NCBI GenBank assembly: GCA_963693365.1
Contig: CAVNZM010000004.1
Location: 2,502,389 to 2,566,388, forward strand
Source: Amoebidium appalachense
Lineage: Eukaryota > Protista > Ichthyosporea
Length of the DNA stretch: 64,000 nt
Direction: 5' to 3'
This document shows, piece by piece, positions 12,477-64,000 of the stretch. Numbering within the stretch: position 1 is the first letter of the stretch; each line of letters begins with the position of its first letter. The notes beneath the pieces are model-generated. The model did no database searches, had not been told where the DNA came from, and worked only from the letters and a program-made list of their open reading frames with translations. The position numbers and the translations under genes were made by a program.

Positions 12477-26126
<13,650 letters not shown>

Positions 26127-30869: not shown

Positions 30870-31108
30870 TCCTTAAACCCGCCAGAGCTCCCAGTTCCCC
30901 TCCCCTTCCGCTCCCCATTTGATGTTTTGTTTGGTATGTTTGTTGGTTATCATCGTTTCTGGACGTGTGCCCATGCATTGCAAGCCTGTGCGCACATACA
31001 CGCACGCAAAATAAACACACACGGGCCCACACACAAACAATGCACATGTTCACCTTTGTGCACACAGGTGGGTACAAACACCCTCTCCCCCCCCCCCCTC
31101 CCCCCCCC

Positions 31109-31139
<31 letters not shown>

Positions 31140-32042: not shown

Positions 32043-32135
<93 letters not shown>

Positions 32136-32695
32136 CGCGCGCGCGCGTGTGTGGAGGGAGGGGTGGGGGGAGGGGTGGGGGGAGGGGTGGGGGGGCGGTG
32201 GTCAAGGGGGTTCGCAAGAGGGAATGGGGGATGTTTGTTCAAAGAATGGAGAGGGGGGGGGGGAGAGGGGAGGGGGGGAGGGGGGGAGAGGGAGGGGGAG
32301 AGGGGAGGGAGGGAGGGGTTGAGGGGAGGGAGGAAAAGAAGGGGGGGGGGGGGGGGGGGGGGGGGGGCTCAAGCTCATTAGTGGTCGTTTTGGGTGAACT
32401 ATTAACTGTTCTCTCTTTGCTTTCCCAAGGACCTGTCTCTGTATCATTTGTCCCTTTCTTTGTTCCTCATTGTTCATGCTTGTAGACTGTACACGACATA
32501 TAAGGTCAGAAAACCACCGTGTAAGATAACTGATATGTCTAAAATAATGATATATAAAAAAATTCAATTGTCAAAATCATCCCCGCATCAACATAAGCAA
32601 ACAATCTACAACAACTTACGGCATTTTATTCCTCTGTTGTACAATCACCTGCAAAATGACTCATGCACTTGCCTCTCCTTCCTCCCTCCTTCCCT

Positions 32696-32726
<31 letters not shown>

Positions 32727-32818
32727 GGCTCTCTCTCTTCTTTTCTTTCTCTCTCTCTCTCCCTCGTAAATCTTCCTCTCCGCCGCTTCCCACCTCTCTC
32801 CTTCTTTCTCCCCCCCCC

Positions 32819-32849
<31 letters not shown>

Positions 32850-32949
32850 ACTCTCCCTTCCACTTTCTCTCTCTCCTCGCCAACATTATCTTGCCTACAG
32901 GTACACTGTAATACACACACAGCGCGCGAGCGCACGCGCGCGCGCGCGC

Positions 32950-32997
<48 letters not shown>

Positions 32998-32999
32998 GC

Positions 33000-33031
<32 letters not shown>

Positions 33032-33050
33032 CTTCCCCCCCCCCCCCCCC

Positions 33051-33088
<38 letters not shown>

Positions 33089-36000
33089 ACACACACACAC
33101 ATACAATCTCCACAGCCACCGCCCCCTTCTCCCAAGCACCAGTTGACCATCCGTCCTCCTGCATCCCAAACACCATCCAAGAAAAACGACCAAACCCCCC
33201 ACCCCCCCAAGCCAGCCCCGCTCCAGAACAAACGCCCAGCACCGACACCCCAAGCCCCACCCCCCAACAACACCAAGAAAACTCGCACGGACGGAGACCA
33301 CACAAGTCCACCCAAGCAACGAAAAACAACCCGCCCACACTCCTCACCGAACGACCGTGTGTCGACGTTTTCTGATGCCCCCCTGAGCGGATTCCTTTTC
33401 GACACTTTGAGTTCCTCTTGGGAGTCCCCTTCCCCTCCCACCACTGCCTTCGATCAATACACCAGGGATATATTTACCACGCCTCAACCAACACTTGTTT
33501 ACCCGGGGAAGAAAACCAACAGTGGAAAAACGAGAAGTGGGGAACGTGGCAAGGGGGGTGGAAATGGAAACGAAACACCGGCCGAACGACAACATGTAGC
33601 ACCTGTGGTGAGTGTGGAAAAGGGAGCGGCGGGGGAAAGGGTGGGAAAGAAAACGGTAAAGGGTGGTGGGGAGAAGGTGGTCAGTGAGCAGAAAGGGAAA
33701 GGGAGGGAGAATTTAACGCAACAGATGGATAAGCAAATGGATATGATGGTAAAGATGCAGCTGGAACTAACAGAGAAAAGAAACGAGAGCGAGAGATTGT
33801 CGAAAGAGTTGGAAGAGAAGGAGACAGAACGGAGGAAGTTATATACAGAAAACGTGGATTTGGATTGTAAGCTGAGTGCGATGGCGGTTGAGGTGAAGAA
33901 ATCAAATAAGGAAGTGGCTAGGATGAAGGATGAGAGGGAGAGGGCTATGAAAGAGAAGGAGACACTTCAGGGTGAGTTGGAGGTTGAAATCGAGGGGTTG
34001 AAAAAAAGAGAGGGAGGAAATGATTAAGGAAATTGCAGAGAAGGAGAAGGAGAGAAAGGCGGATGTGGGAAAATGGGAGAAGGAAAGAGAGAGAATGACG
34101 GGATATGCGCAGATTTTGAAGGGGGTCAATTCAGGGCTGGAGGAAAAGTTGAGGGATTCGGAAAGAAATTTGGGGGGGGTGAGGGAATTTCTGGAAACTA
34201 GGACGAAGGAAAACGAGGAATTAAAGAGTGAAAAGGAAAGTCTGGAACAGAAAAGGTTGTCTTTGGAAGAGGAGGTGAGTGGTCTGAATGCAAGGATTGT
34301 AAACATGGAGCAGGAGAGAGAGAAGGAGAGGGAAGAAAGAAAGAAGAAAATCGATGAATTGAGCAGGGAGAAGGATTCATATGTATCCAAGGTGGAGGGA
34401 CTTGACAGAGATATGGTGGAGAAGGATAAGAAAGTGGAGGAGAAAGAGGGAGAGTTGGCGGTGTTGAAGAAGAGGATAAAAGAAATGGAGGAGGAATACA
34501 AAAACGAGGTAGAGGAGAAACAGAGGGCCATGAGTGTGAAGGAGAGAAATTTAATTCACCAAATTGAAATGAACGAGGAAAAAATTGGAGTGTGGAAGGA
34601 AAAGGTAAAAGAGTTGGAGAAAACGAACGATGAATTCAAAAAGGACACAGAGGAGAAGCAGAGGGCAACGAGAGCGAAGGAGCGCGACTTGACACACCAA
34701 ATTGCAATGAACGAGGAAGAAATGGAGAAAGGTAAAGGGAGAATTGAGGAAATTAGCGGCCGGTTAAGGGATTTGGAGCAGCAACTTGAAGGGAAGGAGG
34801 AAGAGTTCGAGAAGGTAAAGGGGGACAAGGAAGGAATCGGTGAGAGGTGCATAGGTTTGGAGCAGCAACTAAAGAGGAAGGAGGAAGAATTGGAAGAGGT
34901 AAAGAGGGAAAAGAAAAAGGAGCTGGACCTAAAAGAGGAAGAAATCAAGGAGCTGACGAGGGAAAAGGAGGAGCTGGAAGCCAAAAAAGAGGAAGAGATA
35001 AACGAGTTAACGAGGGAAAAGGAGGAGCTGGAAGCCAAAAGAGAGGAAGAAACAAACGAGCTAAAGAGGGAAAGGGAGGAGCTGGAAGCCAGAAAAGAGG
35101 AAGAAATAAAGGAGCTGAGGAGGGAAAAGGAGGAGCTGGAAGCCAAAAGAGAGGAAGAAATTAACGAGCTAAAGAGGGGATTGGAGGAAATGATAGAGCG
35201 GTTAGAGGTGGCAAGGAGGGACTGTGGTCAGGTGGTGGTTGAAAAGAACGAGGAGTTGAAGAAGGCGAAAGAAGAGAAAGAGATATTAGAGAGGGAAAAA
35301 GAGAAAATCGAGGGGGATCTGGAAGATGCCAGAAGAGGATTGGATGACGCACTGAGTCGTTCAGCCAAGGGATTGGCTGAAAAAGAAAAGGAGATTCGTG
35401 ATCTGAGGGCAGAATTGCATAGGGGATTAGTTCAAGCGCTGAGTGGGGAAGAGAGGATGAAATTAGAAGAATTGAGGAGAGAGAAGGAGGATTTGATGGA
35501 AAAGATAAGAAAGAAAGACGGAGAAAATAAAGGGCTTCAGAAGATTATTTATAAGGCAAAGAGGATTGCCGTGGATGGGGATGCTGGAGAGGACGTGATG
35601 AATTTGGTCGAGGAAAATGTGAAATTAAAGAGTGAAATTGAGACGCTTAAGAAAGAAATTGAGAGGCTGAAGAATGAAACGAGGGAGAATGGCCAGAATT
35701 GGCAGGAGGGTAAGAGACAGATGGATGAGGTGCAAGAGCGGCTGAAAAGACTGGATGAAATTATTGAACAGATGAAAACGGAAGTGGAAATGACTAGAAA
35801 CGAGAAGAGAAATATTGAAGATAGAATACTTGAGTTGGAGGAGAGAGAGAGAGAAAAGGAAGAGAGAATCCGTGAGTTAGAGGGGGAGGTTGAAGAGACT
35901 GGAGAGAGATTTGGAGAGGAAACGACGGAACTTGCAGAATGACCGTCCGAATTCACAACACAACCTCAGGTTCGTGCTCCTTTATCCCCTCCCCCCCCCC

Positions 36001-37869: not shown

Positions 37870-38703
37870 GAATTTTCTCGGTTTGTGCCTCCCTTAATCA
37901 GTATGTTTGGATTGTCGTCTGCTGTTTGTCGTATGGAGGAATTGTCTCTTCGTTTTTGTTTTCATTTAGTTAGGCTACCTGATGGTCACCCTCTTTATGC
38001 TTTCTTTCCCCCCCTCCCTCCATCCCTCTTCCCCCCCGATTCACCAACGCTACTTCTGAATGTCCTCAGCCTACCCTCTTTCTACCTGATTCTTCCTCTC
38101 GCTATCTCACTCCCTCTTTCTTTTCTCTTCCTGTTTTTTCTGCCTTTTTGCGTTATTACCATACGCAGTATAAGTTTCTTTCTCGTTCTGATAGAGAAAT
38201 CAAAGGTAAAACTCAGTCGGCATGTGTTATGTTCCTTAGGCAACACCGTACTGATCATTATCGCTTTTTGGGAGCTTTGGCAGGATACATTTCTCCTGCT
38301 GTACGTATGGATACCACCCTAGTAGATAAGTCTGTATGGTGCTCTGATGTTGATATTGCCTGGGAAGTTGTGCAGTGGCGCTGTAATTCTTGTTTTCATC
38401 GCCGCTGGTGCCACTTTTGTGCTGACCTTTTTAATCGCAAGCATGTTGATAGGTGTGAATTTTTATGTCGCGTTTTACCTCTTTCCCTCCGGGTATCTGC
38501 TACACTAGCTGGCAATGTGAACACTTTAGACTTTTTGTTGAATTCTGTTGGTCGTCACATTGAGTATTTATATGATTTTCACACAGTGTTCAGGTATCTC
38601 AGTATGCACTTGTTACTGGATAACTCGTGAAGTTTTTATTGTCTTCTCAGTATGCCGTGCATACTTGTCATATCTTTCCGTCGAATAAATCCAGTCAAAA
38701 GAA
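37870..38703 (+). mobile_element. 5'-truncated non-LTR retrotransposon (LINE) 3' fragment
   Basis: Frameshifted ORFs 37831-38322 and 38148-38630. SMFGLSSAVCRMEELSLRFCFHLVRL..HPL aligns with the post-RT segment of the fragment at 40485-41090 (SIYGLVPIAARVSHLALKFNKHISRL..HPL). C-terminal WR..CHFC..FNRKHVDRC zinc-knuckle-like motif. The last ~240 bp recur at 49542-49781 inside a TSD-flanked insertion. Confidence 0.65.
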
Positions 38704-39783: not shown

Positions 39784-40484
39784 CGTGCGCTAGAATTTTG
39801 TAATGATGTGTTTCTCAAGCCAATCAATACATCTAATAAACAGGTCGCAGTTATGCGTGTTTAGCATAAAATCAAGGATGTTGTAATTTACAGGTAGGCT
39901 ATCTTTCTGGGTGTCTGTTGTGAATGTGACGTGTGTGTGTTGCGGTATTATGTGGTCTATCAAACTGCATTTGGCGATACATGACCGTTTAAACTGGTGT
40001 GTATGTGTGTGTTGTTTGGGCATGCAAACGATGCCACCTTATACTTATTAGATCTCCACTGTATAGCACGTGTACAGTAAAAGCGTGGTAATTGATCAAT
40101 AATACCATCATGCTAGAGAAAGACCAGTTCTACAGGAAGGTAATATGTATTTAGGTGTTATACATTTGCGAGTGCCATATTTGGCAATATGGTTAAGGTG
40201 GTCATTATATATAAATGAGACATAAGGCTTAGTTTTTCAAGGTGTCTGCTTTCATCGGGTCTAGTGTCGTGTGGTATCCTTTTTCCATTTGTTATATTGC
40301 GTGATTATCTTGTGATTGTGTACATGTTTAATAAGTATGTGGCAGTCCAAAGTCACACGCACACTTTTGCAGGGTTTATTTGTATTTGTGCCCGGGGGAG
40401 AAGGAGAGAGAGAGGAAACTTGAAGGAAAGAGGGGAGAGGTGAGGAGGGGACAGGTCGGATAGAGAAGAGAGGGTGGGAGGGCA

Positions 40485-41090
40485 AATACTTCTTTAAGCG
40501 GCTTATGTGCTTATTGAATTTCAGCGCGAGATGGGATACTCTAGCAGCTATTGGGACCAGACCATATATCGAGAGCGTTACAGGCCCAGGTTTACAACAG
40601 TTGTTAGATAGAAAGGAGGCAACTTCTGCTTCAAGGAAATTTGTTTAGGGGTTAAACGCTCTAGTTCTCTCTTTCTTGATCCAAGCGGCGAGAAGGGGTA
40701 AACCGTATTCACATGCCGGGAAGACAAAGTGCGAATAAATGTAAGTCTAATAGAAGGATGGAGGGGTGTGTCTCTAAAAATATTAGCCGAGAAGAAAGCT
40801 AACCGCTTACGAGCCAACTCTACCCTCTTTTCGACCATATGGGAAAACAAAACACCAACAGAATTAACCGGAACACCAAGATATTTGTATTCTGGAACTA
40901 TAGGTGCAGGTTTAGATGACAATGTAAATGTGTGTAAATTATTAGCTATATCAGGTACAAGAACACCACATTTGTCTATGTTAAGGGTCATAAGGTTTGC
41001 CTTGCACCACTCTGACACTACATCGAACAGTCTTTGCAGGCATCTAGGGGTACGGGCAAGGAGGGACAGATCATCAGCATAGAGATGCTG
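40485..41090 (-). mobile_element. Degenerate LINE reverse-transcriptase fragment (YADD through thumb and downstream region)
   Basis: LYADDLSLLARTPRCLQRLFDVVSEWCKANLMTLNIDKCGVL...EYKYLGVPV. Truncated just before YADD and frameshifted after ~40720. Confidence 0.85.
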
Positions 41091-42255
41091 CACCAGCTCT
41101 TCCGCGGATCCAGTTAATTCAGCTGCAGGATGTTGATGTTTTATATCAACAGCATCCTTTGTGTTTGGGTGTTTTACCTCCTTTTGACCTTGCATGGGTG
41201 GCTTATATAAGGTGTGGAGCACATGCTGCCCCCCCCCCCCCTCCCCCCCTCTCCCCCGTGGGGAAAAAGCCACTGAGAACAAGATTGGGGGTAAAAAATT
41301 AATAAATTAAGGGTCTCTTTCTCTCTCTAATTTTCCTCCCCCTCAGTCAGGCTGAAACTCCCTCCTCAAAAAGGTTTTCTCCCCATCACCATGCATCTAG
41401 CCGCTTTTTATGCATGTGCCAAGTTGGTAGATATCGATGGCCATAGGCAGCTGTGCGCAGCCTGGTTTCAGCCTCCGCAGGTGGTGTCACTGAATTGAAT
41501 AGAGATCTTCTCTTCTGCATACACCCAACTGCAGCATCAAGAGTTTATCTTTACTGATTGGCAATCACTACTCCGACGGCAGGATGTTCACTGCTGGTGG
41601 AACTGTAAACAAGGGATGGGCCAGGCGCCCCCTAAGGTTATAAATGCACATTGACCGTTTTACCAGTGGGCCCTGGAACATTCGATCGATGGCCCCCCTT
41701 AGGGCCGCCCGCTGGAGCTTGGAGCAGCTACCAAAAAATAATAACCAAAAAAGCCCTCGTTACAAAAGCATCTCCCATGTGCCCTCTCTGCCTCCCTGAT
41801 GATTGCCGCCGTCTTCCGGGCAGCGGCAAGACTGCACAGGCACAAAATGGAACCACGGCAGTCCACTGCTCCATGTCTTTCAGTGAGCAGGTGCAGATGC
41901 ACAGTATACATACGTATTGTGTTTATACATATCCGTCTCACAGTTGACTCCTCGGCCGGCGGCTGGGTGTGCATGTGCTCCGAGTGGCTCACTGGCAGTC
42001 ACGGGAGCCTGTTCACCCTATACACTTTGACTAGATTTCACCTTTTAGGGGTGTGTTTGTGCCTTAGTGTACATTAAAAGGGGTGTGTGAACAGGCAAAT
42101 TGAGGCAATTTTCGGCAGCTTTTTACGCAAAAATATCAACCATGGAACTGAATGCAAAATAATCCCCCAACACTGTTGGCTACGGGGTGTCATGGTGCTA
42201 ACTCAAAATTTCCAGATTTGATATTTCGAGTTTTACCTCTTTCCCTACGGGTGTC

Positions 42256-43128
42256 TGTTGGAATACGTCACCATGTATGACAGCAAGAGCCTTGAAGTAT
42301 GTATGTGTCCTAGCTTGTTTGTATTCGTGTCTGCTTTCCCTCTTTGTGCTCTCTCTCTCTCTCTCTCTCCCCCCCCCCCCCCCCCCCCCCCCCCCCGTAT
42401 CTCTCTCTCCCTTGTTTCTGTGGGCACAGATATCTGTAGATCTGTGCACACCTGGCTCTCTTGCCTGATAAGAACTTATTGTGTTTTATTTCTGTTTGCT
42501 CTCCTCTGTTTATCTGAGAGGTAGCGTGATTGGCTAGCCTCACTCGTTGTCTTTCCTTTATTTCAAAATGGCCTAGTTTTGTTCTCAAAAGGATGGCTCG
42601 CCAATAGTCGCGAGCGAGTACATCTGTAGATTGTGTTGTGCATTCCTGTCTATTAATATATGTGTGTTGTGATTGGACAATAGATATATATGGAATTCGG
42701 TTTATTGCAAAGTGTCTTCACTTTGAGAGTGTCGACTGTTAGGAAATATATGTATTTAAATAAGTTTCTTTATAGAGACGAACATAAATATATATGTGAG
42801 TTAATAGTGACTAGATGTATAATTACTTAATTTATTTAAGTAAGAGTTTCTACACTTTAGTTTTATCGGAAGTTGGAATGCGTATGCTCTGTCGGAATGT
42901 GTTTTTCTATCTTCTGATAGAACCGATTGGTTCTCCCTCTTTAGTTGTGATAAGGTGATAAGTCGCAAGTACAAAAGGAACCGAAAGCACAATAAAGATT
43001 TAGTTGTTGTTTGAAATCTTTTCAATGTCTCGTGAACAACTCCGATTGCCCTCTCATTAATGTGTTAGTCGTGTTTTACATGACACCTCTGTGCACTCTG
43101 CTCCCTTAGACCCGTACAAAAAACAACA
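42256..43128 (+). repeat. 5' LTR (873 bp)
   Basis: TGTTGGAATAC...AACAACA. It differs from the 3' LTR by about two substitutions seen by eye, plus simple-repeat length. Confidence 0.95.
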
Positions 43129-43246
43129 GGTTAAAGGCCCATTTTCGCACGCTCTCGCAACACATACTCTCGCTGCAATCAAAAATATTCAAATTTGAAT
43201 ACGGATCTGATTCCTCTCTCACGCATCATCTGACTGATTGATCACC

Positions 43247-46200
43247 ATGTCGGAGAAACCTGCGTATCTCAACCTCACCCCCTGGAAAGGGGATGACACC
43301 ACGGACAAGAAGTCCGGCAAACGTCTCACCTATTATGAGTGGGAACCCGTCATCTTCCGGTACCTACGTACCACCACCGCGGCCAAATTAGTGCCCGTCA
43401 TCAAGGCCCCCGAGTGGGTCGACCCTTCCGACGAGAATGAGTGGCACGGCTACGACACTGAGGAGGCCTACACCGAGGCTTCCAACCTCCTTGAACAGAT
43501 GTTTACTCAACTCGTCTCCAATGATGAGCTGTATAACTCTGGTCAAATCCACGATGATGTGTCACCTGCCCAAGCTTTCCACAACCTCCGTATGACCTAT
43601 GCGGCTGAACGTGAAGATCGTGCTCGTCAAATCCTCCTCGACTACCATGAGCTTGAACTCAAAGACTTCAAGACCGTCACGGCCTACCTCACCATGGCAC
43701 GCCGTCTGTGCACTACCCTGCACATCCTCGAAGAGCCCATTCCTCACAAGACTATGGTTGATAACTTCTTCATCCACCTCAAGAAGAACCGTAAGTTAGT
43801 TTGTACCGACATCCAGGCCATGATTGCCGACTACTTCCGTCGTACCATTAACTACGAGACCTACAACCGTCTAATCAGTGACATCAGAGCTGCAGAGATC
43901 CGTGAAGGTCTCATCGACTCTGGGTCCGGGTCCTCCTCCACCGTCCGAACAGCACGTGCCCTGCAAAGCCGTGTACTCACCAAGGACGACCTCAGACACC
44001 GGATCCCCCGACGTGACAGCTCCGTCTCCCGTCACCCCCGCGGTCGTCCCACCGATCGATCCCCCTCAGTTGACCGTGATTACTCACGGTCCCGTTCCCC
44101 CGGCTATTGTTCCCGGTCACCCTACCCCCCACGTAAAGGGGGTAACCGTCATTCCCAGCCACCCCGAGCCAAGACCACTGGCTCCCTCGACTGTGCCTAC
44201 TGTCACGAAGACCATCATGTCACACAGTGTGACAAACCTGGCTGCTCAATTGCCCGTCGTCACCGTGCCAACACCAAGTCTGGAAAAGAGGTGCATTTTG
44301 CCCTCGTGTCCACCACGGCCTCCCTACCCATGGACCCCTGCTGGGACTCGGCTTCAAACGTCCACGTGTGCCCAGTAAAAGAGTACTTCTCTACTCTTGA
44401 GCCATGCCCCCCGACTGACGTCCACGGCCTCGGCATCGTCACTGCACATCACCGTGGTGTCATCAACCTGGCCGTCACCTACAACGGAGTAACATCAGTA
44501 CTGAGCCTCAACACCCTCTATGTACCCGACTCCCCAGCCTTCCTGATATCACCCTCAATGGCCTCCAAGTCGGGTCTCCTTGCCCACCTCGATGATGAGG
44601 ATGCATTCCCATCATACCTCTACACTCGTGGTGGCAACATCGTGTGTTCCCTCACAGGCACAGATGGACTGTACTTCATCACTGACTATGAGATACGTCC
44701 CTCCATCCCTCGGACCGTCACTCCTCTGGTAGCCAACGTCAAGGTAAACAATGATCCTCAGCTCTGGCACCACCGTCTCGGTCATCGTGCCCTGTCCACC
44801 CTCACCAAGATGGTGAGAGGTGACCTCGTGACAGGCCTCCCCTCATCCCTCTCAGTGGCTGACACCACTGACTGCTTCGGTTGTGTCTCCGGCAAGACCA
44901 CCAAAGCCCCATTCTCCGGCACCAGAACCCAGTGCCCCTTCCCCGGTGCCAAGTGGCACATGGACTTCTTCGAGCCTCCCTGTGCCTCCTATGGTGGCTA
45001 CAAGGTGGCCCTCGTGTGTACCTGTGATGCCTCCGGCTACACCATCGTGTACCTCCTCCGTGATCGATCCGAAACTCTCGAATACGTCAAGGCCCTGGTT
45101 GAGACTACTGACAAGCAACCCGACAAGGTGGTGACCCACTTCCGTTCAGACTCTGGGTCCGAGTTCACCTCCCACGCTATGGAGCAGTACTGCCAGTCCA
45201 AGGGCATCATTCAGGAATTTGCCCCGGTTGACTGCCCCCAACTCAACGGCTTCGTTGAACGTAAGATGAGGGATCTGCAGGAGATCGTTCGGTGCTTCCT
45301 TCATCAGGACAAGGCCGACTCCCTTTCCCCCAAACTGTGGGGAGCTGCTCTCAAGCATGCTGCCTACATCATCAACGTGACCCCGGCCAGAGCTGCCAAT
45401 GGCCGTACACCGTTTGAAATTTTCTACGGCGTCAAGCCTGACATCTCCCACCTGCACGTGTTCGGCTGCCCAGCCTATGTACACGTCCCTGCATCCAAAC
45501 GAGACAAGTTGGCCTCTACCGTCAAACTCGGCACCTACGTGGGCTGGGATATCACCAACAAAGCCCACAAGATCATGAATCTACGTGGCAACACGGTCAA
45601 CCTCTACCGCGATGTCGTCTTCGACGAATCACAATTCACCACGGCATCCAATCAGCTTTCTGTGCAGGCCACCAATCAGACGACCTCAATCGATTCATCC
45701 CTGCATTCCGGAAATTCCAATTCCGATGACGATGAAATTCCGTCGGTGATTATCCGTCGTTCCCCCCGTCGTGTACCTGCCCCCGTGGCTCCACCCACCC
45801 CCCCCCCCCACCGGTCAGCAACCCCTGCTGCCGGCCCCTGCCGTCAATGACCACGTACCTGGTCATCTCACCCCGGTTCGTCCTGGGTCTCCGGAGTTCC
45901 ACTCGGCCCCGTCCAGCCCCGTGTTATCCAACTCCCCCCTCAACACGGCACCCATTCCTGGCTTCCAGGCCCCCATCCCCGACCACCGAGTGTCTGTCCC
46001 AGACACCCCCCCGGCCCCTGAGCCCCTCCGTACCGTCCCCCGTCGTTCCTCCCGTCTCTCCTCTCGGCCTGCCATGGCTATGGTGAGCATCTCCCACCCA
46101 GCCTTGATGTGTCTCAGCTGCCCCGGTCAATTCAGAAGCTGTGCTCCGGCACCAAGGGTGATGAAGTGGTGACTGCCCTCACTGCCGAGTACAAGGCTTT

Positions 46201-47669
46201 CATCGACAAGGACATCTTCGACGTAGTTGAGCCCCCCTCCGATGCCAACATCATCCGATTCAAGTGGATTGTCACGGAGAAGGTCCTCAACTCTGCTGGT
46301 GACACCAAGATCAAGGGTCGTGGTGTGGCCAAGGGTTTCACCCAAGTCTACGGTGTTGACTACGGTGAAAACTCTTCCCCCGTCGTCATGTCCTCCTCCG
46401 TCCGTGCCCTGCTTGCCCTCGGTGTGCAACAGGACCACGAGATCCATCAACTCGACATCAGCACGGCCTTCCTCAACAGCCCCCTCGACGAGACTTTGTA
46501 CATGGAGCAACCTCCTGGTTTTATCCTCCCTGGCACTGAACACAAAGTCTGGAAACTCAAGAAGGCCATCTACGGACTCAAGCAGGCATCCCTGGCATGG
46601 TACGAGTTCTTCAACTCCATTCTCATTGCCCACGGCCTCACCCGTCTCCGTTCCGATCCGTGTGTCTACTTCCGTCAGTTCCCCAATGGGCACATCATCC
46701 GTTCGGGCAACTACGTTGATGATGCCATCATCACCTGCACACGGAACTCCACCATCATGCAGGGGCTTGTTCGTCACATCACGAAGTCTGCCGAGTGCAA
46801 GGTCGGTCTGCCAGACATCTTCCTCGGCACCCAACTGCTGTACACCCGTGACTCCCTCAAGCTGCTGCAGTCCTCCTACATCAAGGACATCATCACCGAC
46901 TTCAACCTGGTCGATGCCAAGCCTAAGGCAACCCCTATTCCCGTGGGCACCATCATCAACGAGACCTCCCTCTCATCCCTGCCCACCACCGTCCCCTACC
47001 GTGAACTCCTCGGCCGTCTGCTGTGGGTTGCTCGGTGCTCCCGGCCTGACATCTCGTATGCCATTGGCTACCTCGGCCGATTCAGCTCCAAGCCCACCAA
47101 GACTGCCTGGGAGCTTCTCCTCCGTGTCGTTCGTTACCTGCTCGGCACCATCAACCTCGGCCTCTACTACAAGAAGAAGGCCCCCAACAGCAAGGTGCCC
47201 ATCCTTGAGTGCTACTCGGATTCTGACTTTGCTGGTTGCCCCACCACCCCGTCGTTCCACGTCTGGGTACGTCATCCTCCTCGAAGGCTCCCCCGTCACC
47301 TACCACTCCAAGCTGCAGACGATCACTGCAACTTCCACGTGTGAGGCCGAGCTCCTGGCCCTCAATGCTGCCGTGCAAGATGTTGTCTGGCACCGTGATC
47401 TACTAAAGGAGCTGGGCTACCCCGTGACCGAGCCCACCCCCGTGTACTGTGACAATCAGTCCACCATTGCTCTGGTCCACTCCAACACCATCAAGCACCG
47501 GACCAAGCACATTGCCGTTCGTTACTTCAACACAAAGGACTACATCAACAGTGGGGACGTCACTGTCACCTACATCGACACCAAGAAGAACCTGGCCGAC
47601 ATCTTCACCAAGCCTCTGGCTGGTCCGGCCCACGACACACACCGTGCCAACCTCAGTCTCCGTGACTGA
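43247..47669 (+). CDS. Copia Gag-Pol polyprotein (three single-base frameshifts as assembled)
   Basis: Zinc knuckle CAYCHEDHHVTQC; protease WDSASNVH; WHHRLGH/CFGC; integrase WHMD..RSDSGSEF..PQLNGFVER; RT QLDISTAFL, YMEQPPGF, LKKAIYGLKQA, YVDD; RNase H YSDSDFAG, EAEL, CDNQS, ADIFTK. Shifts at ~45800, ~46110 and ~47250. Confidence 0.92.
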
Positions 47670-48392
47670 CCCGTGCACTGGTGTTCATCATCAAGTGGTT
47701 TTCTGAGTAGGTTGGGGCCCTGGACAGCAGTTGACACACCTACGGTGATCAAGATGCCTCCCAACGAAAGTCTACTACTCCTCATCGTTTCTCTTCATCA
47801 GTGGGGACTCAGTCTTCCATCGTCATATGTGTGCATCTTCAGTGGGGATTATTCTCCCCCATCCGTCGTTTATTTATATTCATATCCCACCATATATATT
47901 GGTTTTCTTCTATATTCGACTTATATATATGTCGAACTGGGATGGCGTCCCAGTATAAATAATTATCTATAGCCATGACGTGCTGGTTGACTGCCAGTCT
48001 AAACCTAGTCCACGGGATGCACCTTCCCCGTGTCTTAACTGGTTGACCACCAGTCTATAAATCAGTCCACAAGATGTTCATGTCTTGTGTTTACCTGGGT
48101 GGTCCCCAGTATAAACCATTAGCCACCAACACGTCACACATACACTAGTGTTTCCTATATATATATATATATATATCGCCGATAACCACCATGATTTCTT
48201 ATTTCGAGTCTTCAGAGGCAACCGTCGTTGTGTGCCTCTTCAGTTTTGATTCTCTCCTTCCCACCTCAAGGATCTTCGGTTTGCATCCTCGAGTGGGGAA
48301 ACTTGAGTGTGACGGCCCCTCCTGTGTTTGGACCTCATCTACCGTCACATCAACAGACACGAGAACACAAACTTCAACCCCTTGAGTGGGGA

Positions 48393-49253
48393 TGTTGGAA
48401 TACGTCACCATGTATGACAGCAAGAGCCTTGAAGTATGTATGTGTCCTAGCTTGTTTGTATTCGTGTCTGCTTTCCCTCTTTGTGCTCTCTCTCTCTCTC
48501 TCCCCCCCCCCCCCCCCCCCCCGTATCTCTCTCTCCCTTGTTTCTGTGGGCACAGATATCTGTAGATCTGTGCACACCTGGCTCTCTTGCCTGATAAGAA
48601 CTTATTGTGTTTTATTTCTGTTTGCTCTCCTCTGTTTATCTGAGAGGTAGCGTGATTGGCTAGCCTCACTCGTTGTCTTTCCTTTATTTCAAAATGGCCT
48701 AGTTTTGTTCTCAAAAGGATGGCTCGCCAATAGTCGCGAGCGAGTACATCTGTAGATTGTGTTGTGCACTCCTGTCTATTAATATATGTGTGTTGTGATT
48801 GGACAATAGATATATATGGAATTCGGTTTATTGCAAAGTGTCTTCACTTTGAGAGTGTCGACTGTTAGGAAATATATGTATTTAAATAAGTTTCTTTATA
48901 GAGACGAACATAAATATATATGTGAGTTAATAGTGACTAGATGTATAATTACTTAATTTATTTAAGTAAGAGTTTCTACACTTTAGTTTAATCGGAAGTT
49001 GGAATGCGTATGCTCTGTCGGAATGTGTTTTTCTATCTTCTGATAGAACCGATTGGTTCTCCCTCTTTAGTTGTGATAAGGTGATAAGTCGCAAGTACAA
49101 AAGGAACCGAAAGCACAATAAAGATTTAGTTGTTGTTTGAAATCTTTTCAATGTCTCGTGAACAACTCCGATTGCCCTCTCATTAATGTGTTAGTCGTGT
49201 TTTACATGACACCTCTGTGCACTCTGCTCCCTTAGACCCGTACAAAAACAACA
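48393..49253 (+). repeat. 3' LTR (861 bp)
   Basis: Direct repeat of 42256-43128, followed by the TSD GTGTC. Confidence 0.95.
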
Positions 49254-50796
49254 GTGTCTGCTACACTGGCTGGCAATGTGACCACTTTAGACTTTTTGTT
49301 GAATTCTGTTGGTCGTCACATTGAACATTTATATGATTTTCACACAGTGTTCAGGTATCATGTCGCGTTTTACATCTTTCCCTACGGGTGTCTGCTACAC
49401 TGGCTGGCAATGTGACCACTTTAGACTTTTTGTTGAATTCTGTTGGTCGTCACATTGAGTACTTATATGATTTTCACACAGTGTTCAGGTATCTCAGTAT
49501 GCACTTGTTACTGGATAACTCGTGAAGTTTTTATTGTCTTCTTATGTCGCGTTTTACCTCTTTCCCTACGGGTGTCTGCTACACTGGCTGGCAATGTGAC
49601 CACTTTAGACTTTTTGTTGAATTCTGTTGGTCGTCACATTGAGTATTTATATGATTTTCACACAGTGTTCAGGTATCTCAGTATGCACTTGTTACTGGAT
49701 AACTCGTGAAGTTTTTATTGTCTTCTCAGTATGCCGTGCATACTTGCATATCTTTCCGTCGAATAAATCCATTCAAAAGAAATATTTCGAGGTTTAGAGG
49801 CGACTGACGCGACTCTGAAAACACTATGTCAGTGACAAACGACTGCAGGTTTTAAATACGTAACAGGCACCAGAAATTTGACCCGGTATTTTATTTTGCG
49901 ATAGAGGTGCTATATTTCTTCATCCCTCCTGCATGATGCATGATGCATCTGTGATGTATCCTCTGAAATCTGAATGTGAGTCCTGACGGTTCAACGAAAA
50001 GTTTTCTTTTTTTCTTTTGACTCGGGTTTATTGATCCGTTGATGAAGGCAACGTGCAGCCACAGGCTACATAACCACCAATAGAACTGAAAAAGCCAAAG
50101 CTACGAAATAAAAATAAAGCGACAAGTGACAAAGGACACCAGCGGGCAAAACCTTAAGTGTACGTGTATGCGTGAAACTAGTTTGCTCCAACTAGTCATA
50201 TGCATCGATGTTGACCAGACCACACTCCGCAAGAAGACATCATTACTGCTCCTTCCCAACAGGCCCCCCTCAAAACCTACCGAGACACAGCAAGCAAGTC
50301 AGCCTCTAAAAGAGCAATGCAGACCAAATCTGAGCTAAAAAACAATCCCAACAGGCCCGGCCCCTAGATAACCCGGAGAAACTGCATCTAGCTCTCTGAT
50401 AAGGTGGCCTATAGCTAGTTGTGGAAGGACACACAGAAAAACACAATTACAGAATGCATGCAAGCAAACCCGGTCATTGCCATACGACTGGAGGCTAAGG
50501 ACTGGCAGTCACTTGGAAAGCTCCCTGACGACCAAGTAGCCGCCCCTCCACTCACGCAGCGCAGAAGTAGCTGAAGAAGTTGCAGCAACCCACCGCCAAT
50601 AGGTCGCGTAGAAGCGTAGACAGCGTGTAGAAGTTACCATAGGTTGCAGTGGACCACCAGGCGTTGAAGAAACCACTTCTCAAGCGAGAAACTCCGCGAA
50701 AGGGAGATGCCCCCACACTCTCACAGCAGTAGGAATACACCAGGCCACACCACACACACGCTGCAGTCACGTTCCCCTGAGTGGGACTCCCTCCCA

Positions 50797-52707: not shown

Positions 52708-53432
<725 letters not shown>

Positions 53433-53861
53433 ACACACGCGCGCGCGACTGTTGTAATGTCATGGAACGGGTAACGTGGACAAGAAACAAAGTGCTTGAT
53501 ACCAAGAATTTAAGGTATCATTTACCAAAGAGTTAATCGTCCTTTGTTTTGTGTTATTTTACTCGATGTATTTATGTCTTACTTTACCTTAAATTATTAG
53601 CCTTTTTGAAAGGTTCTATCTGTTGTTGGAAATCTTGTTGTTGCTTTCCCGATGGTGGTTGTAATGGTGTGTGAGTTTGTGACAGTGTGCGTGTGATGGT
53701 AGTGGTTATTGAGCGGAGCCCATACCCCTTCTTGTGTATTAACTATTTTTCTACAGCACCATCACAGTTCGGCACCGGGGGCCAAGCCAAATCACACGTG
53801 TCCCTGCATGTAACGACAGGAACCCACACAGAAACCACCATCACCCACCCCAACCGCACAC

Positions 53862-54973
53862 ATGGCTACCGAGGGGAAGGAGAGGAAAGAGCTTCGTGCA
53901 AGGTTCGAAAATGTTCCCCACCAGGTGCAAGTCAGGGAGTTCTGTGCCAGATGGGAGTTGGTCAAGGAGAGGAAACTGTCGTGGTTGTTGAAGGAGCTAA
54001 GACAGCACCTGCGCAGATTGTATCCGACTATGAGAATGAAACAGGTGCGTGTGGCGATATATCATGATCCTATAATTAAAATTTGCATTATGAATAAAAA
54101 CCTTTGAACAATTCATCTTTGGATAGTCCGACGATTTTGAATAATGTCTTATGAATTGTCAAATATTATGGTTCATTTTGATCCGTGCCGTATAATCCCT
54201 TCTGAAGACGTTTTTTTTTTTTTTTTGACAGTCCACATTTTTGATCCGGTTTGAATAGCCCCTTCTGGATCCGATGATCCATCTTGGATATCTATTCCTT
54301 TTAAGTGGTCCATTTTTTATGAAGTCCTTGGTGACTCCGTTTCGGATGGTCGGTTTTCAATGATCTTCTATCACTAAAAATCCATCATGCTGGATAGTCC
54401 AAATTATCCATTTTATAAAGCCCATCTTAAAATTGGAACAAATAGTTCATTCAATAACGAATCATTTTGAATAGTCCATTTTGAATGAACCTTTAATTGC
54501 ATAGTCCATTTTGCATGTTTCGTTTTGAATATTTTCTTTTGAGAGACTTGATTCGGCCTCTGGGGTTCACCAACACAAAGTCAGTGCCACTGGTACTGCC
54601 ACTAGTCTTGGTGCGTGTGTATTTTTAGAGGAGGAGGATGGGGGGGAGGGGAGGGGGAGGGGGAGGGGGAGGGGAGGTGGGAGGGGCAAGTGGTGGGGGA
54701 TATGTGTGAGGGACACCCGTGTTCTTTGTTTGTGAGGCGGGAAGGGGGAAGGGAGGGATCGGGGAGGAGGGGGGGGAGGGGGGGGGGGGGGGGGTTGGAT
54801 GGGGGGGGGGGGGGGTAGGGGGGGGGGGGGGGGGGGGGATGATTCTTTGGCCATGATGCAAGATATGGGAATGGAAATCATATTGTTAACGTTCTTACGT
54901 TCCAACCCTTCCTTTCTTCCCCTTTGCCTCCCCCCTCCCTCCCCCCTCCCCCCCCCCTCCTCCTCCTCCCCCC

Positions 54974-55005
<32 letters not shown>

Positions 55006-55712
55006 AAAAACAAAAAAAAAAAAAACGAAGACACAGACCGAGATCTCGAATAATGCCTACCTACTGGAGCTGGGTGACTTCACGCTGCAACTAGAGTTTA
55101 AAGACGAGGGGGAAAGACTGGTGGTGACGGATGACTGGGCAGAGGACACCCTAGATGAATTGTTTGCGGGTTTGGGCCCTGGGGGCATTGTGATTGCTCA
55201 GTATATCCCCCCTAGAGAAGAGGTGGGTGGAAGGATGCGTGCATGCACGTTTGTGTGGTTGCCTGCTCTTTGCATTCAGATATGTGCTTGTACACACCCG
55301 TGTATTTGAGTGCGTGGGTGTGTGTTTGCGAGTATTTTTGAATGGGCGGGGAGATCTTGTAGGCATCTGGGGGTTGGGGAGAAGGCCCTGGGTGAGATTG
55401 GTTATCTCAGACGGGGTAGAAGTTGGGCCCCCCCCCCGGGGTCATGGTGGGGCTACCAAGAGATCGGGTGCCACAATTGACGTTAGGTATCCCCCCCCCC
55501 CCCCTCCCCCCCCCCCCCCCCCTCCATCTTCCGACCTCAAAATGCTTTTTTTCATGCCTTTAATACCTAAAGCTTGCAAACGCACATGTACACTCCCACC
55601 TGAGCGTGGATGATGTGGAAAAACACACTCACACATATACATATACACACAACACGCACACGCACAAGAACGCACGCAATCAAGCACACGCACGCGCACG
55701 GGTGCACACACA

Positions 55713-55764
<52 letters not shown>

Positions 55765-58700: not shown

Positions 58701-59058
58701 AATAGAGAGTGAAAATGAGATGCGTAAAAAGGAAAACGAGGGGCTGAAGAATGAAGCAAGGGAGAATGGCCGGAATTGGCAGGATGGTAAGAGACAGATG
58801 GATGAAGTGCAAGAGAGGCTGAAGGGGCTGGGTGAAATAATTGAACAGATGAAAACGTATTGGAAATGACTAGAAACGAGAAGGAAAAAAGTGAGGATAG
58901 AGTGCTTGAGTTGGAGGAGAGAGGAAAGAAAAGGACGAGAGGATTCGTGAGTTGGAGGGGATCATGAAGGGACTGGAGGGGGAGTCGGACAGGAAACGTC
59001 CGAAGTTGCAATGTGATGTGTTGCTGTCTGACCGGCAGAATCCATAACACAAACCCAG
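53862..59058 (+). pseudogene. Orphan coiled-coil gene, copy 2 (decayed paralogue of 30547-36785)
   Basis: Same exon layout: 53862-54044 MATEGKERKELRARFENVPHQVQ.., 55036-55222 ..GIVIAQYIPPREE, and a long exon from ~55868. The long exon is split into at least five frames by indels, stops and a replaced segment at ~58343-58385, several of them outside homopolymers. Confidence 0.8.
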
Positions 59059-59837: not shown

Positions 59838-60777
59838 TGCGGCACCCCAGAGATCCGGGCGCAGGTATTTACACGGGACTGCAGCCACCAGGAGATTGAG
59901 CCCGTGATCCAGCGCATCTCTGCCACCACGGCGGCGCTCAACAGCAAGGGCCCGGCCTTCTTCTACACAGATCGGTGCTGCCAAGACCGGGCGTTTGTTG
60001 AGCGCATGTTTCCAACCCTAGCCCGGCCAAAATGCCCCGTCCGTCTGAACGAGGCTGCGCTGGTAAGCGTGACGGACGGTCTGCCTGGGCTGGAGCTGCC
60101 GGCCAACTACCCTAAGCCGGTGTACACCGACTGCCAGGGGGCGGTGGTGGCTACAGCGGCCATTCGTGCCGACCTGGAGGGGCAGCAGCACCGCGTGGTG
60201 GGGCTGGACTGCGAGTGGGTCTATCGGGTGGGCCAGGCGCGGTCCAAGGTTTGCACGCTGCAGATTGCCACCGCACGGGCCGTGTACATCTTCCACTTGG
60301 CACGCATGGGCCCCAACCACAGCCCGCCCGCGCGGCTGGTGGACGAGCTGATTGCGCTGCTTAGGGACCCCAGCATCATCAAGGTGGGCAAGCAGATCGG
60401 CACGGACTCGGCCCACCTCAACAAGGACTACGGCACCCCTGTGGCCAGCTATCTGGAGCTGGGCCGGTTCTGCTATGCCCGTGCAGCTATCACCTCTGCG
60501 GCCCGGGGCTTGGCCGACATCACTGCCCAGGTCATAGGCAAGAAGCTGCCCAAGCCGGCACTTGTTCGATGCTCCAACTGGCACGAGCCGCTATCAGAGG
60601 TGCAGGCCACCTACGCTGCCCTTGATGCATATGCGTCCCTGCAGGTCTACTCGGCCGTGGTCGATAGGCCAAACCTGTCAGGTGTGTATCCCACCTGCTT
60701 TTTGCCCCAGTGCTTATGTGCTTATGCCAGATATAGAAAGATTGTGGGCCCCCCAGAGGAGAGGGGGAGGGGGGGGA

Positions 60778-60809
<32 letters not shown>

Positions 60810-61975
60810 TGGCTGACCACATGGGCCAGTGTTCCAGTTGTGTTATGCTGGGTGTCGGGTGGCTATCAAAGGAGGGGGTGATTGGTGGTGGTGGTGGTGG
60901 TGGGGGGGGGGGGGGGGGGGGGGGGGGGGGGCTATAGCACTGTTAACACGTGCAAGTGCCACACAAGCTGGGCACTGGGAGAGGGGGGGGGGGGGAGGGA
61001 GAAGGGGGGGGGGGGGGGGGGGGGGGGGGAAGGGGGGTTGCTAAGGAATATGCATTTGATTTTTGTGGAGCGAAGAGAAAAACGTTGGTGCTGTGGCTTT
61101 TTGGCTGAGTTTTTTGCTTCCCTCTATGACATGCAGCGCGGCTTCATGCAAAGGCACTCGGTGAAGGGGTTGAGATTGTGCCCCGGCGGGGCCCACATGC
61201 TGCAGCAGCCACCGGGGTGGTGCTGGCTGTGCAGCCGGAGCGCTGGGGGGGCATGAAGGTGGGCAAGAAGCATGCAGTGGTGCGGGTGGATCAGGTGCTG
61301 TCGCCGGCCATGCAGGTGCCCTTTGGCCCCGACAAGGGCAAGACCCTGGGAGAGCTGGGCCCGCCGCCCTTTGAGCTGATGGTGCACCTGCAGTGGCTAC
61401 GGCCCATTCAGCCCCCACCGGACCCAGGTGCCGAGGTGCCGGTGGTCCCTGACCCAGCCCCTCCCCCTGCCAGTCCTCCCCCTGCCGAGCAGCAGCAACC
61501 CCTTGCCGGCCCACAGGCACCCCCCCAGGACCCCCAGGCAGCCCCGGGGGGCCTTGAGGCAGCCCCAGGGGGACCCGAGGCAGCTCCCAGAGAGGGCATG
61601 TTGGGCCAGGCACCGCCTGGGGAGGTGGTGTGGCAGACTGTGCTGAATGACGCCTTCCACTCCATTGCAAACACGGCGGACGGCACGTACAAGTCACACC
61701 CCCGCAGGGCTGAGTACGCACGCGCACTCAGCGAGGCAATATTTGTGTGGAATTACGGACATGTGAAGGTGCCCCCCCCCCTCCCCCCCCCCCCCAAAAT
61801 AAAAAATAAAAAATAAAAATAAAAAAAACGGCAACAACAACATGCGTGACTGACGCGCACACACACATACACTCGTTAGCACACACTCACCATTCCACCC
61901 ACAACCATGCACACCTTCGACAAAACTTCTGAGGGAAGAGAGAGAGCCTGAGCCTCAGAGAGAGGGGGGGGGGAA

Positions 61976-62015
<40 letters not shown>

Positions 62016-62550
62016 GGGGGGAGGAGAGTGGGGGTTATTCATATGCCTAGAGAGAAATAATGTAGGGTTGTGGGGGGAAATAGCCACATGCATTTTTTAC
62101 TTGTGTTGGGGGAGAAGATGGGGGGGGTGGAGGGGAGGGGTCCTACAATAACGGCAGGTATCAAAGTCTACCAAACCCAAATTGCAGTGTGCGTAGTAAA
62201 TTAATATTGGCATCCTGCCTCACAGGGGGTGCTGGAGCAGAAGGGCATCGACATTGAAACCGAGCTCAAGGGCGGCGACCTGAGCTACTTCATGGAGCGC
62301 ATCCGGCGGGTTATTCCCGACCCATACACGCTGGTCTCGCGGCTGGTGGAGTTCAAAAACACCTACAAGGATGTGCCGCCCGGACCGGATGGCAAGCCTC
62401 TGTTCAAGAAGGATGGCTTTGAAAGACTCGAGGCAACATCCCCCCCCCCCCCCCTCCCCTGCAGGCGCCCAACAACTCCACCACCACAGAAAAGATTCTT
62501 CGCTTATTTGTCATCCTTGGTTCATCTGCACACACACGCACACCCTAGCC

Positions 62551-62583
<33 letters not shown>

Positions 62584-62587
62584 ACAT

Positions 62588-62659
<72 letters not shown>

Positions 62660-62741
62660 CCCGCACGGCCCTTGCTGCCTAGCCAGTTGTTTTTTGCCTT
62701 TCCCTGCTCGTTTTTTTCCTTAGCAACCCCATCCCCCCCCC

Positions 62742-62772
<31 letters not shown>

Positions 62773-64000
62773 ACACATACACACACACTACCACCACCAC
62801 CACCCACCCATCTCTCTGATGTTTGCTTGTGCCCCCACAGTCGCTGCTCGAACACGCCCAAAATGGCTGTCTGTCGGACCCCCCCGGCCTGCCCCTCTAC
62901 TACGAGACCACTGCCGACGCAGATGGGCTCATGCGCTACCGCTGCATCCGGGGCACCAACGAGGTGGAGGGGGCAGTGCACAACCCCCTGGCCACCCACT
63001 TTGGGGCCACACGCATGTCGCTGCGCCTGCTGGACGCCACCATGTCCAATAGGCGCCACCGCCACAACCTGCGTGCACACTACCGCAACCGCCTGGGCCA
63101 GGCATCGGGGCCCCCCCACTACAGCCCCTGGATTGTTGACGACATGGAGGCACTGGCGCTGATGCTGTACGGCCATCACCTCGACCCCCAGTGGGTACCC
63201 GTAGGCTGCTACAAGCTACCGGAGGAGTACTTCAACTTTGCCCCGCTCTCCTGTGTGGCCAATGCCCCGGCGCAGGAGCCAGTTGCGGTGCCCGCACCCC
63301 CACCTCCGTCTGATAACATCGAGCCTGCAGCCAATGGCGTGATGGGCGGGCCAGAGGACTGTGAGGTCGAGGAGGGTGACGGTGCTGCCATGGGGGGGGG
63401 CAACCAGGTGGCGCGTGGTGCACCACAGCCGGACCCTGCACTGAGGGGCGACTACAAGTTCCTGGCGCAGAAGCAACATGTGGCCATCCCCTTCCTTCCG
63501 GTGCTTACCCCTCAGGAGCGCAAGCTATTCAGCACGCTGCTCCTGGGCACCTACAAGGCACATGCAAAGCCCAACGGCCAGCTGTTCGAGGCTTTGGCCC
63601 AAGACTTCAACAAGGCTGCCTCTGTGGCTGGGGGAATCTACATGAAGGATGCGGCCTACATCAAGAAGCATTTCGACAAGTGGAAGACCTGGCAGACGGC
63701 ACATGCACAGCGCTCCACACACGAGGGCCTGGCAGATCACCGCAAGCGTATGCGCGAGGAGAGGGCAGACGCTGTGCCAGCAACCATACGGCCTGCCCCC
63801 TTGCCACCCCTCCCTGTTCCAGACGGTGTCGATGCAGGGGCGCAGCGTGAGCGGCCCTTGCCCATGCTAGTGGGCAAAAAGCATCGCAACATTGGCCCTG
63901 AGGGGCCCCTGCAGATGGATTTGCCGGTGCCCCCTCCTATGCAGCCACCCCAGAGAGCCCCCAAGACCTGCAAGACGTGTGGCCGCCAGGGCAAGGGCTG
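59838..64000 (+). mobile_element. Dada-type DDE DNA transposase with an inserted DEDDy (DnaQ/WRN-like) 3'-5' exonuclease; spliced, 5' part missing, continues beyond the window
   Basis: Exons ~59838-60681, 61137-61768, 62226-62432 and 62841->64000. Motifs in order: EIRAQVFT, FYTDRCCQDR (second D), exonuclease GLDCEW / GKQIGTD / YAALDA, LNDAFH (DxxH), RRVIPDP, GCLSDPPG, YRCIRGTNEVEGAVH (E), HYSPW, LPVLTPQERKLF, and CKTC at the window end. An exonuclease between the second D and DxxH is the arrangement I recall for some Dada transposases. Confidence 0.8.

What the first reader, a model, noticed from the sequence alone, without database searches (positions are those of the whole stretch)
43247..47669. 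Copia coding region is CpG-rich but almost devoid of CGC/GCG
Seen by manual scan: only about eight CpG sites in 4.4 kb are in CGC or GCG context, and I found none from ~45612 to 47669 among roughly a hundred CpGs. Simple codon bias does not explain this. C-ending codons are kept before GA/GG/GT (ttc gac, tac gag, ctc ggt) but switch to T before Ala codons (att gcc, gat gcc, tat gcc, act gcc, aat gct), and Arg is mostly CGT. PRMT5 exons and the Dada exons use CGC/GCG freely. Known (from memory): 5mC that prefers CGC/GCG has been reported in the ichthyosporean Amoebidium. Inference: the element has been shaped by, or evades, a trinucleotide-specific host methylation or defence system, through deamination or selection.
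Basis: partly seen in the sequence, partly recalled or inferred. Interest (0 to 1): 0.8.

Follow-up and report, generated by a model that had tools for sequence, protein, structure and literature searches.

The report
Retrotransposon purges host-methylated CGC/GCG sites
A young copia retrotransposon in a protist related to animals (likely Amoebidium) keeps its ordinary CpG sites but has lost nearly all CpGs in CGC or GCG context, the context Amoebidium methylates by default, and the pattern of loss suggests the element was likely selected to avoid that mark rather than simply decayed by it.

Summary
Confirmed: 11 of 255 CpGs in 43247-47669 are in CGC/GCG context, 0 of 119 after 45612. Synonymous shuffles give 73 (0 of 2000 as low); other CpGs are exactly at expectation. 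The element is a young, high-copy Ty1/copia (861-873 bp LTRs, 5-bp target duplication). The host is an ichthyosporean, likely Amoebidium, which methylates CGC/GCG by default. Neighbouring genes are mildly depleted too (o/e 0.66), but only where deamination is silent. The copia also lacks the motif where deamination would change the amino acid (Arg CGC 1 vs CGT 29, host 24 vs 3; G before CGN 0 of 17, host 15 of 20). LTR and leader keep the motif; loss deepens downstream. Of 71 well-powered copia loci from other hosts, one is as low, and it is CpG-poor overall. A cytosine-converted library shows most copies methylated in all CpG contexts and a minority unmethylated. Best reading (0.45): selection in active copies against the methylated motif, on top of deamination. 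Mutational load (0.2) and pure decay (0.12) remain open. No whole genome was available.

The parts
42251..42255 (.). 5' target-site duplication (5 bp, repeated at 49254-49258)
   Evidence: sequence; empty-site joints
42256..43128 (+). 5' LTR, TG...CA, 873 bp; keeps CGC/GCG (7 sites; first-order o/e 0.92)
43129..43246 (+). primer-binding site and leader; keeps CGC (5 of 6 CpGs scored after repeat masking)
   Evidence: the primer tRNA was not identified by any search
43247..45850 (+). gag - protease - integrase frame; 7 of 56 CpGs in CGC/GCG context up to 44060, 4 more up to 45611
   Evidence: Pfam Pol_BBD, gag_pre-integrs, rve, SH3_retrovirus; counts
45728..46171 (+). low-complexity linker in which this copy's reading frame is broken; 0 of 30 CpGs in CGC/GCG context
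46172..47242 (+). reverse transcriptase; 0 of 57 CpGs in CGC/GCG context (18.5 expected)
   Evidence: Pfam RVT_2 E=7e-59
47268..47669 (+). RNase H region, in another frame after a second break near 47.25 kb; 0 of 21 CpGs (6.8 expected)
   Evidence: aligns to 43-44 of 45 copia homologues; no Pfam hit or PDB hit; domain name recalled from motifs
47670..48392 (+). 3' untranslated region ending in a polypurine tract (48384-48392); 2 of 24 CpGs in CGC/GCG context
48393..49253 (+). 3' LTR, 861 bp; 2 mismatches to the 5' LTR in 861 aligned columns, 12 gap columns
49254..49258 (.). 3' target-site duplication
12477..26126 (+). control: host PRMT5 gene, 17 exons, 612 codons scored; mild deficit, only in deamination-silent registers
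59853..64000 (+). control: Dada-like DNA-transposon gene (4 exons seen, 933 codons); mild deficit, only in deamination-silent registers
   Evidence: exonuclease placement as described for some Dada

Best explanation
The coding body of this young copia family lacks CpGs in the CGC/GCG context while keeping all other CpGs, most likely because selection on its active copies removed the one motif that the host (likely Amoebidium) methylates by default. Shown here: the deficit, its symmetry across strands, its presence in all six codon registers, its sparing of LTR and leader, and CpG methylation of the element in an organism that carries it. Taken from the literature: Amoebidium methylates CGC/GCG in active gene bodies, spares promoters, and methylates all CpGs only in silenced DNA. 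Inferred: the lineage passes only through copies that stay active; such copies would carry gene-like methylation (CGC/GCG only, away from the promoter); a CpG-dense, intronless new insertion bearing those marks would more often be converted to full silencing, so variants without the motif left more descendants. Deamination adds to the loss where the change is silent.
For: Register test. Where CpG deamination would change the amino acid the pooled PRMT5 and Dada-like exons show no deficit, but the copia does: Arg CGC:CGT not before G is 1:29 vs 24:3 (difference p=1.9e-4); G-ending K/E/Q/L/V codons before CGN are 0 of 17 vs 15 of 20 (p=0.021). Where deamination is silent the host drops 3.5-fold (CI 1.8-6.8), the same as the published 70%/20% methylation ratio, while the copia drops 26.9-fold (CI 7.2-100.7; p=0.007). 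Other CpGs drop equally in both (3.2 vs 3.3-fold). At 17 Arg columns conserved among 45 homologues only 1 is CGC, and the Arg after Met is AGG. A generic mutation-only model gives P<=0.046 for 1 of 30 up to 86-fold hypermutability, even with no amino-acid constraint. Gradient: 12 of 28 CpGs in LTR plus leader, 7 of 56 in 5' gag, 4 of 199 in the rest, mirroring low promoter methylation. In run X20, minority contigs over 5' gag have every G converted, including CGC and GCG sites.
Against: The dominant X20 contig keeps 3 of 3 CpGs in three contexts, and a TCGG site is only 6% converted: most copies are fully methylated despite lacking the motif. Active host genes tolerate CGC/GCG methylation at any expression level, so the mark alone is not repressive. 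The Dada-like transposon gene in the same window does not avoid the motif. No contig with CGC/GCG-only methylation was seen among the 8 of 144 X20 contigs listed. Two of the register contrasts are not significant (p=0.19, p=0.087). Controls are two genes, 1545 codons. The host species is inferred.
Confidence: 0.45

Rival explanations
1. Mutational load: in active copies only CGC/GCG is methylated and so hypermutable, and selection across many copies removes codons that would mutate into damaging ones; silencing plays no part.
For: Explains loss at Arg codons and G before CGN, the sparing of the promoter end and the full methylation of most copies. High copy number would make weak selection more efficient (inference).
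Against: Depth of loss is similar in all registers (about 21- to 57-fold against the nearest control class, wide intervals) rather than scaled to amino-acid cost. No C>T or G>A at 1% or more at any of 12 such sites in two unconverted runs (40 of 46 rows shown, young family, little power).
Confidence: 0.2
2. Neutral decay: deamination of mCGC/GmCG alone erased the motif, with amino-acid changes tolerated.
For: This is the pattern in the neighbouring genes. A modest CGC decline with TGC/CAC gain is reported in endogenous retroviruses (PMC12548410). TGC/GCA o/e is 1.17 in the coding region.
Against: Conserved Arg codons also avoid CGC. The model needs about 300-fold hypermutability and nearly unconstrained Arg, against about 11-fold seen in the host exons. 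TGC/GCA is no higher than in the rest of the window (1.19).
Confidence: 0.12
3. Restriction-like sensing: because self DNA is methylated at CGC/GCG, a host factor attacks unmethylated CGC/GCG in freshly made cDNA.
For: Strand symmetry, near-total loss in all registers, and it would spare DNA transposons that are copied from methylated DNA, like the Dada-like gene.
Against: LTRs and leader are part of the same cDNA and keep 12 of 28 sites. No such factor appears in the passages read.
Confidence: 0.1
4. Codon or RNA-level bias (tRNA supply favouring CGT, codon-pair effects, an RNA sensor) with no link to DNA methylation.
For: Highly expressed host genes were not available as control. One of 71 control loci (L057) is as low.
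Against: CGC and its complement GCG are both lost on one strand, across six registers and many amino-acid pairs, and in the frame-broken linker (0 of 30). The motif equals the host's published methylation context.
Confidence: 0.08

Closest known systems
Ty1/copia LTR retrotransposons (Pseudoviridae)
   Same: LTRs with TG...CA, 5-bp duplication, order gag-protease-integrase-RT-RNase H, RVT_2 domain.
   Different: No listed relative above 42% identity in RT; trinucleotide-specific CpG loss seen in 1 of 71 well-powered control loci, and there with general CpG loss.
Amoebidium CGC/GCG methylation (Sarre et al. 2024, PMC11244446)
   Same: Same trinucleotide context; promoter sparing; elements methylated in all CpG contexts (seen).
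   Different: The sections, passages and supplement legends I read describe the mark, not any sequence depletion in elements ('depleted', 'deamination', 'copia': 0 hits in the main text).
CGC decline in endogenous retroviruses (LaMere et al. 2025, PMC12548410)
   Same: Retroelement loses CpG preferentially in CGC context, linked to methylation.
   Different: Described there as decay after endogenisation with TGC/CAC gain and overall CpG loss. Here other CpGs are kept, loss is near total and extends to registers where deamination is not silent.
Element-encoded counter-silencing (VANDAL, DNMT-, TET-, MBD- or DAM-carrying retrotransposons)
   Same: Element adapts to host methylation (10.64898/2026.05.21.726589).
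   Different: Those carry an extra protein. No extra domain was found here; the adaptation would be in sequence composition alone.
Restriction-site avoidance by phages and CpG avoidance by RNA viruses (recalled, no call)
   Same: A parasite lacks a short motif that the host marks or senses.
   Different: Eukaryotic chromatin mark; LTR and leader are exempt; no sensor known.

Membership tests
Ty1/copia | Integrase upstream of reverse transcriptase | tested here: met
   rve in the 43247 frame, RVT_2 downstream
Ty1/copia | Copia-type RT (RVT_2) | tested here: met
   E=7.4e-59
Ty1/copia | Two LTRs, TG...CA, 5-bp target duplication | tested here: met
Ty1/copia | tRNA primer-binding site and polypurine tract | tested here: inconclusive
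   purine tract abuts the 3' LTR; a primer-site-like stretch abuts the 5' LTR, but no tRNA was matched and the paper search found nothing
Ty1/copia | RNase H after RT | tested here: met
   aligns to 43-44 of 45 copia polyproteins; no Pfam or PDB hit
Amoebidium-type methylated host | Ichthyosporean host | tested here: met
   PRMT5 exons 78% and 77% identical to Ichthyophonus hoferi, the only hit among 4 candidates
Amoebidium-type methylated host | CpG methylation on elements in all contexts | tested here: met
   run X20 (organism C) pattern; whether the window itself is organism C is not known
Amoebidium-type methylated host | CGC/GCG-preferring methylation in active gene bodies | not tested
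   both read-laying runs went to the element; only the indirect 3.5-fold deficit in host exons
Amoebidium-type methylated host | DNMT1/DNMT3 repertoire | not testable with these tools
   no genome held
Neutral deamination decay | Loss confined to changes reachable silently by C>T or G>A at the CpG | tested here: not met
   met in the two control genes, not met in the copia
Element-encoded anti-silencing | Extra epigenetic domain | tested here: not met
   only standard copia domains in the three frames scanned

The most novel reading that the evidence does not exclude
A retrotransposon has rewritten its whole coding body to be invisible to the host's default CGC/GCG methyltransferase, which implies that this 'neutral' gene-body mark is the first step of de novo silencing or of self/non-self recognition in a pre-animal DNMT1/DNMT3 system.
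Probability: 0.4. Interest if true: 0.85.

Novelty: new variant of a known kind. Interest (0 to 1): 0.66.

Why it matters
How a DNMT1/DNMT3 host first recognises a new insertion, and what gene-body methylation is for, are open questions. Amoebidium separates a default mark (CGC/GCG) from a silencing mark (all CpG). An element that specifically lacks the default target suggests the default mark costs active elements something, and it gives a direct test with published genome and methylome data and with simple reporters. The register test also separates decay from selection without experiments, and the signature could flag context-specific methylation in unstudied hosts.

Tried and rejected
No whole genome is held, so no genome-wide family comparison. 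No RNA holder listed. Viral-contig scans found no relative; the metagenome scan gave 4 distant loci. Protein searches found no listed relative above 42% for RT or 39% for integrase, so there is no close outgroup. Apparent deficits of CTAG, CATG and GATC largely vanish under codon-preserving swaps (0 vs 2.9, 13 vs 13.2, 16 vs 14.5; CCGG 16 vs 25, z -2.9 among 256 words): rejected. The coiled-coil elements were tried as controls, but one set was scored in frames with stops and the other has 18 CpGs: not used. A minus-strand BTB-like gene was translated but not added to the counts. Copy variants as a mutation spectrum: 0 of 24 coding variants create the motif, 3 create other CpGs, 1 of 3 leader variants creates it; 2 of 50 other CpGs and 0 of 12 motif CpGs show C>T or G>A at 1% or more: too few to decide. 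Rfam found nothing in the window. Earlier findings: none.

Full report
Observation. In 43247-47669 there are 255 CpGs and 11 lie in CGC or GCG context; none of 119 does after 45612. I scored the three in-frame pieces separately (43247-45727, 46172-47242, 47268-47666; 1317 codons, 222 CpGs). Synonymous shuffles that keep protein and codon usage give 73.4 +/- 5.5 such sites, and 0 of 2000 reach 11. Dinucleotide shuffles give 88.8 +/- 6.4. Other CpGs are at expectation, 211 vs 211.3. CGC/GCG is by far the lowest trinucleotide (o/e 0.12; next 0.62), and both orientations are hit on the coding strand (5 vs 61.2 and 6 vs 36.7). Other candidate word deficits did not survive a codon-preserving null.

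What the element is. A full-length Ty1/copia: LTRs at 42256-43128 and 48393-49253 with 2 mismatches in 861 aligned columns, a 5-bp target duplication and a polypurine tract; protease-like, integrase and RVT_2 domains in copia order. This copy's frame is broken at least twice, in the 45.8-46.1 kb linker and near 47.25 kb. Twenty listed runs hold it; 6555 and 5234 contigs of two runs lie on it, from which I infer a high-copy, young family. No listed RT relative exceeds 42% identity. The motif site at 45430 is private to this copy in all four runs laid (40 of 370 rows shown), so the family carries at most 10 by these data.

Host. No genome is held. Two PRMT5 exons are 78% and 77% identical to Ichthyophonus hoferi PRMT5, the only hit among 4 candidates, so the host is an ichthyosporean. 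Sarre et al. 2024 (PMC11244446; abstract, introduction, section 6, passages and supplement legends read; figures not seen) report that among ichthyosporeans with genomic data only Amoebidium has DNA methyltransferases. There CGC/GCG is about 70% methylated against about 20% for other CpGs, active gene bodies carry mainly the CGC/GCG mark, promoters are low, and silent genes and young elements are methylated in every context. I put the host as Amoebidium at about 0.85; this is inference.

Direct methylation evidence. Run X20 behaves as a cytosine-converted library (my inference from its pattern). Of its 13 G>A rows, 12 are non-CpG G (11 at 99% or more, one at 43%) and one is a TCGG CpG at 6%. 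Its deepest listed contig (depth 1992) has 8 other letters over 8 non-CpG G and 3 CpG G in ACGC, CCGT and TCGA, so all three CpGs read as methylated. Three minor contigs (depth 249, 216, 33) have 10, 12 and 11 other letters over 10, 12 and 10 G, so they read as fully unmethylated; the first two include CGC and GCG sites. This rests on counts, not on displayed letters; only 8 of 144 contigs were listed; treatment of the sample is unknown; depth is not copy number. It shows that most copies are methylated in all contexts despite lacking the motif, which counts against any strong claim of evasion.

Controls. PRMT5 (612 codons) and a Dada-like gene (933 codons; exonuclease as in some Dada, PMC3706591 passages) are mildly depleted: 27 vs 40.7 and 88 vs 132.2. 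The rest of the window, with simple repeats masked, shows no first-order deficit (0.99). I fetched 83 copia loci from other sources (their eukaryotic hosts are unknown), dropped 3 without a stop-free frame and scored 80. Among the 71 with at least 10 expected sites the median o/e is 0.80. One (L057, 1 vs 11.5) is as low as the window's element but is CpG-poor throughout (CpG o/e 0.21); the next is 0.43.

Decay or selection. Deamination removes the motif silently in some codon registers and only by amino-acid change in others. In the pooled control genes the deficit is confined to the silent registers: 3.5-fold (CI 1.8-6.8) before Ala relative to other CpG junctions, which equals the published methylation ratio, and none at Arg (CGC:CGT 24:3) or at G before CGN (15 of 20). 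In the copia the silent register drops 26.9-fold (CI 7.2-100.7; difference p=0.007), Arg is 1:29 (p=1.9e-4) and G before CGN is 0 of 17 (p=0.021). Two other contrasts point the same way without significance (p=0.19, 0.087). Non-motif CpGs drop alike, 3.2 vs 3.3-fold (all). At 17 Arg columns conserved among 45 of the 89 full-length homologues, codons are CGT 10, CGG 3, CGA 2, AGG 1 (after Met), CGC 1. A generic one-codon mutation-selection model rejects 1 of 30 at P<=0.046 for hypermutability up to 86-fold even with no constraint on Arg; only about 300-fold with little constraint fits. The model assumes Arg shares the C-ending preference of other codons; a tRNA-driven CGT preference would weaken the Arg test but not the G-before-CGN test.

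Position. The motif makes up 12 of 28 CpGs in LTR plus leader, 7 of 56 in 5' gag, 4 of 199 in the rest of the coding region and 2 of 24 in the 3' untranslated region (gag vs rest p=0.003). This resembles the methylation profile of an active gene, and fits poorly with a sensor acting on the whole cDNA. Functional promoter motifs or faster gag turnover could also produce it.

Mechanism. Shown: the deficit, its symmetry, registers, gradient and methylation of the family. Inferred: the lineage runs through copies with gene-like methylation, and selection removed the methylated motif. I favour selection through silencing risk (0.45) because the loss is about equally deep in all registers; mutational load (0.2), neutral decay (0.12), restriction-like sensing (0.1) and codon or RNA bias (0.08) remain. 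Copy variants had too little power to separate them.

Comparison with what is known. The element is an ordinary copia by anatomy. A modest CGC decline by decay is reported for endogenous retroviruses (PMC12548410; abstract and passages). Elements that carry anti-silencing enzymes are listed in 10.64898/2026.05.21.726589 (passages). 10.1101/2025.04.15.648976 uses non-CGC methylation as the silencing mark in two Amoebidium species (passages). Searches found no report of CGC/GCG avoidance by an Amoebidium element; of the 13 papers listed I opened three, the library lacks most subscription papers, and bioRxiv supplements are closed, so this may be noted where I could not see.

Verdict. Real, specific and better explained by selection than by decay, but resting on one family, two control genes and an inferred host. 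New variant of a known kind; interest 0.66.

Noticed in passing
window 38460-38667, 49254-49746 and the 5' flank at 42215-42255: The copia sits inside a unit of about 184-208 bp that recurs in tandem; public contigs show many empty sites. No Rfam match. Whether it is a preferred target is untested.
   Followed up: partly
window 59853-64000: Multi-exon Dada-like transposase gene with a 3'-5' exonuclease; it does not avoid CGC/GCG beyond the deamination pattern.
   Followed up: partly
window 30400-36000 and 53700-59050: Two diverged copies of a multi-exon element with a long Glu/Lys-rich coiled-coil frame; no significant Pfam family.
   Followed up: no
window 52709-53440: About 730 bp of a ACGC tetranucleotide repeat, that is a long array of the very context the host is reported to methylate.
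   Followed up: no
window 39900-41300, minus strand: Degenerate non-LTR reverse transcriptase fragment (RVT_1 E=1.5e-6); no CGC/GCG deficit (1.28).
   Followed up: partly
window 3349-9300, minus strand: Multi-exon gene that reads like a Kelch/BTB protein (family recalled from motifs; translations).
   Followed up: partly
window 42599-42616 and 43146-43172: Clusters of CGC/GCG in the LTR and repeated CTCTCGC words in the leader; candidates for promoter motifs.
   Followed up: no
runs X1, X5, X9 on window 43135-47600: Contigs 80-90% alike show related copia subfamilies in the same organisms; their sequences could not be read out.
   Followed up: partly
L057:729-1640: A copia fragment from an unknown eukaryote with 1 of 16 CpGs in CGC/GCG context on top of general CpG loss; chance or a second case.
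   Followed up: partly
L005-L083: 79 copia-coding contigs lie inside prokaryotic genome assemblies, presumably eukaryotic contamination.
   Followed up: no
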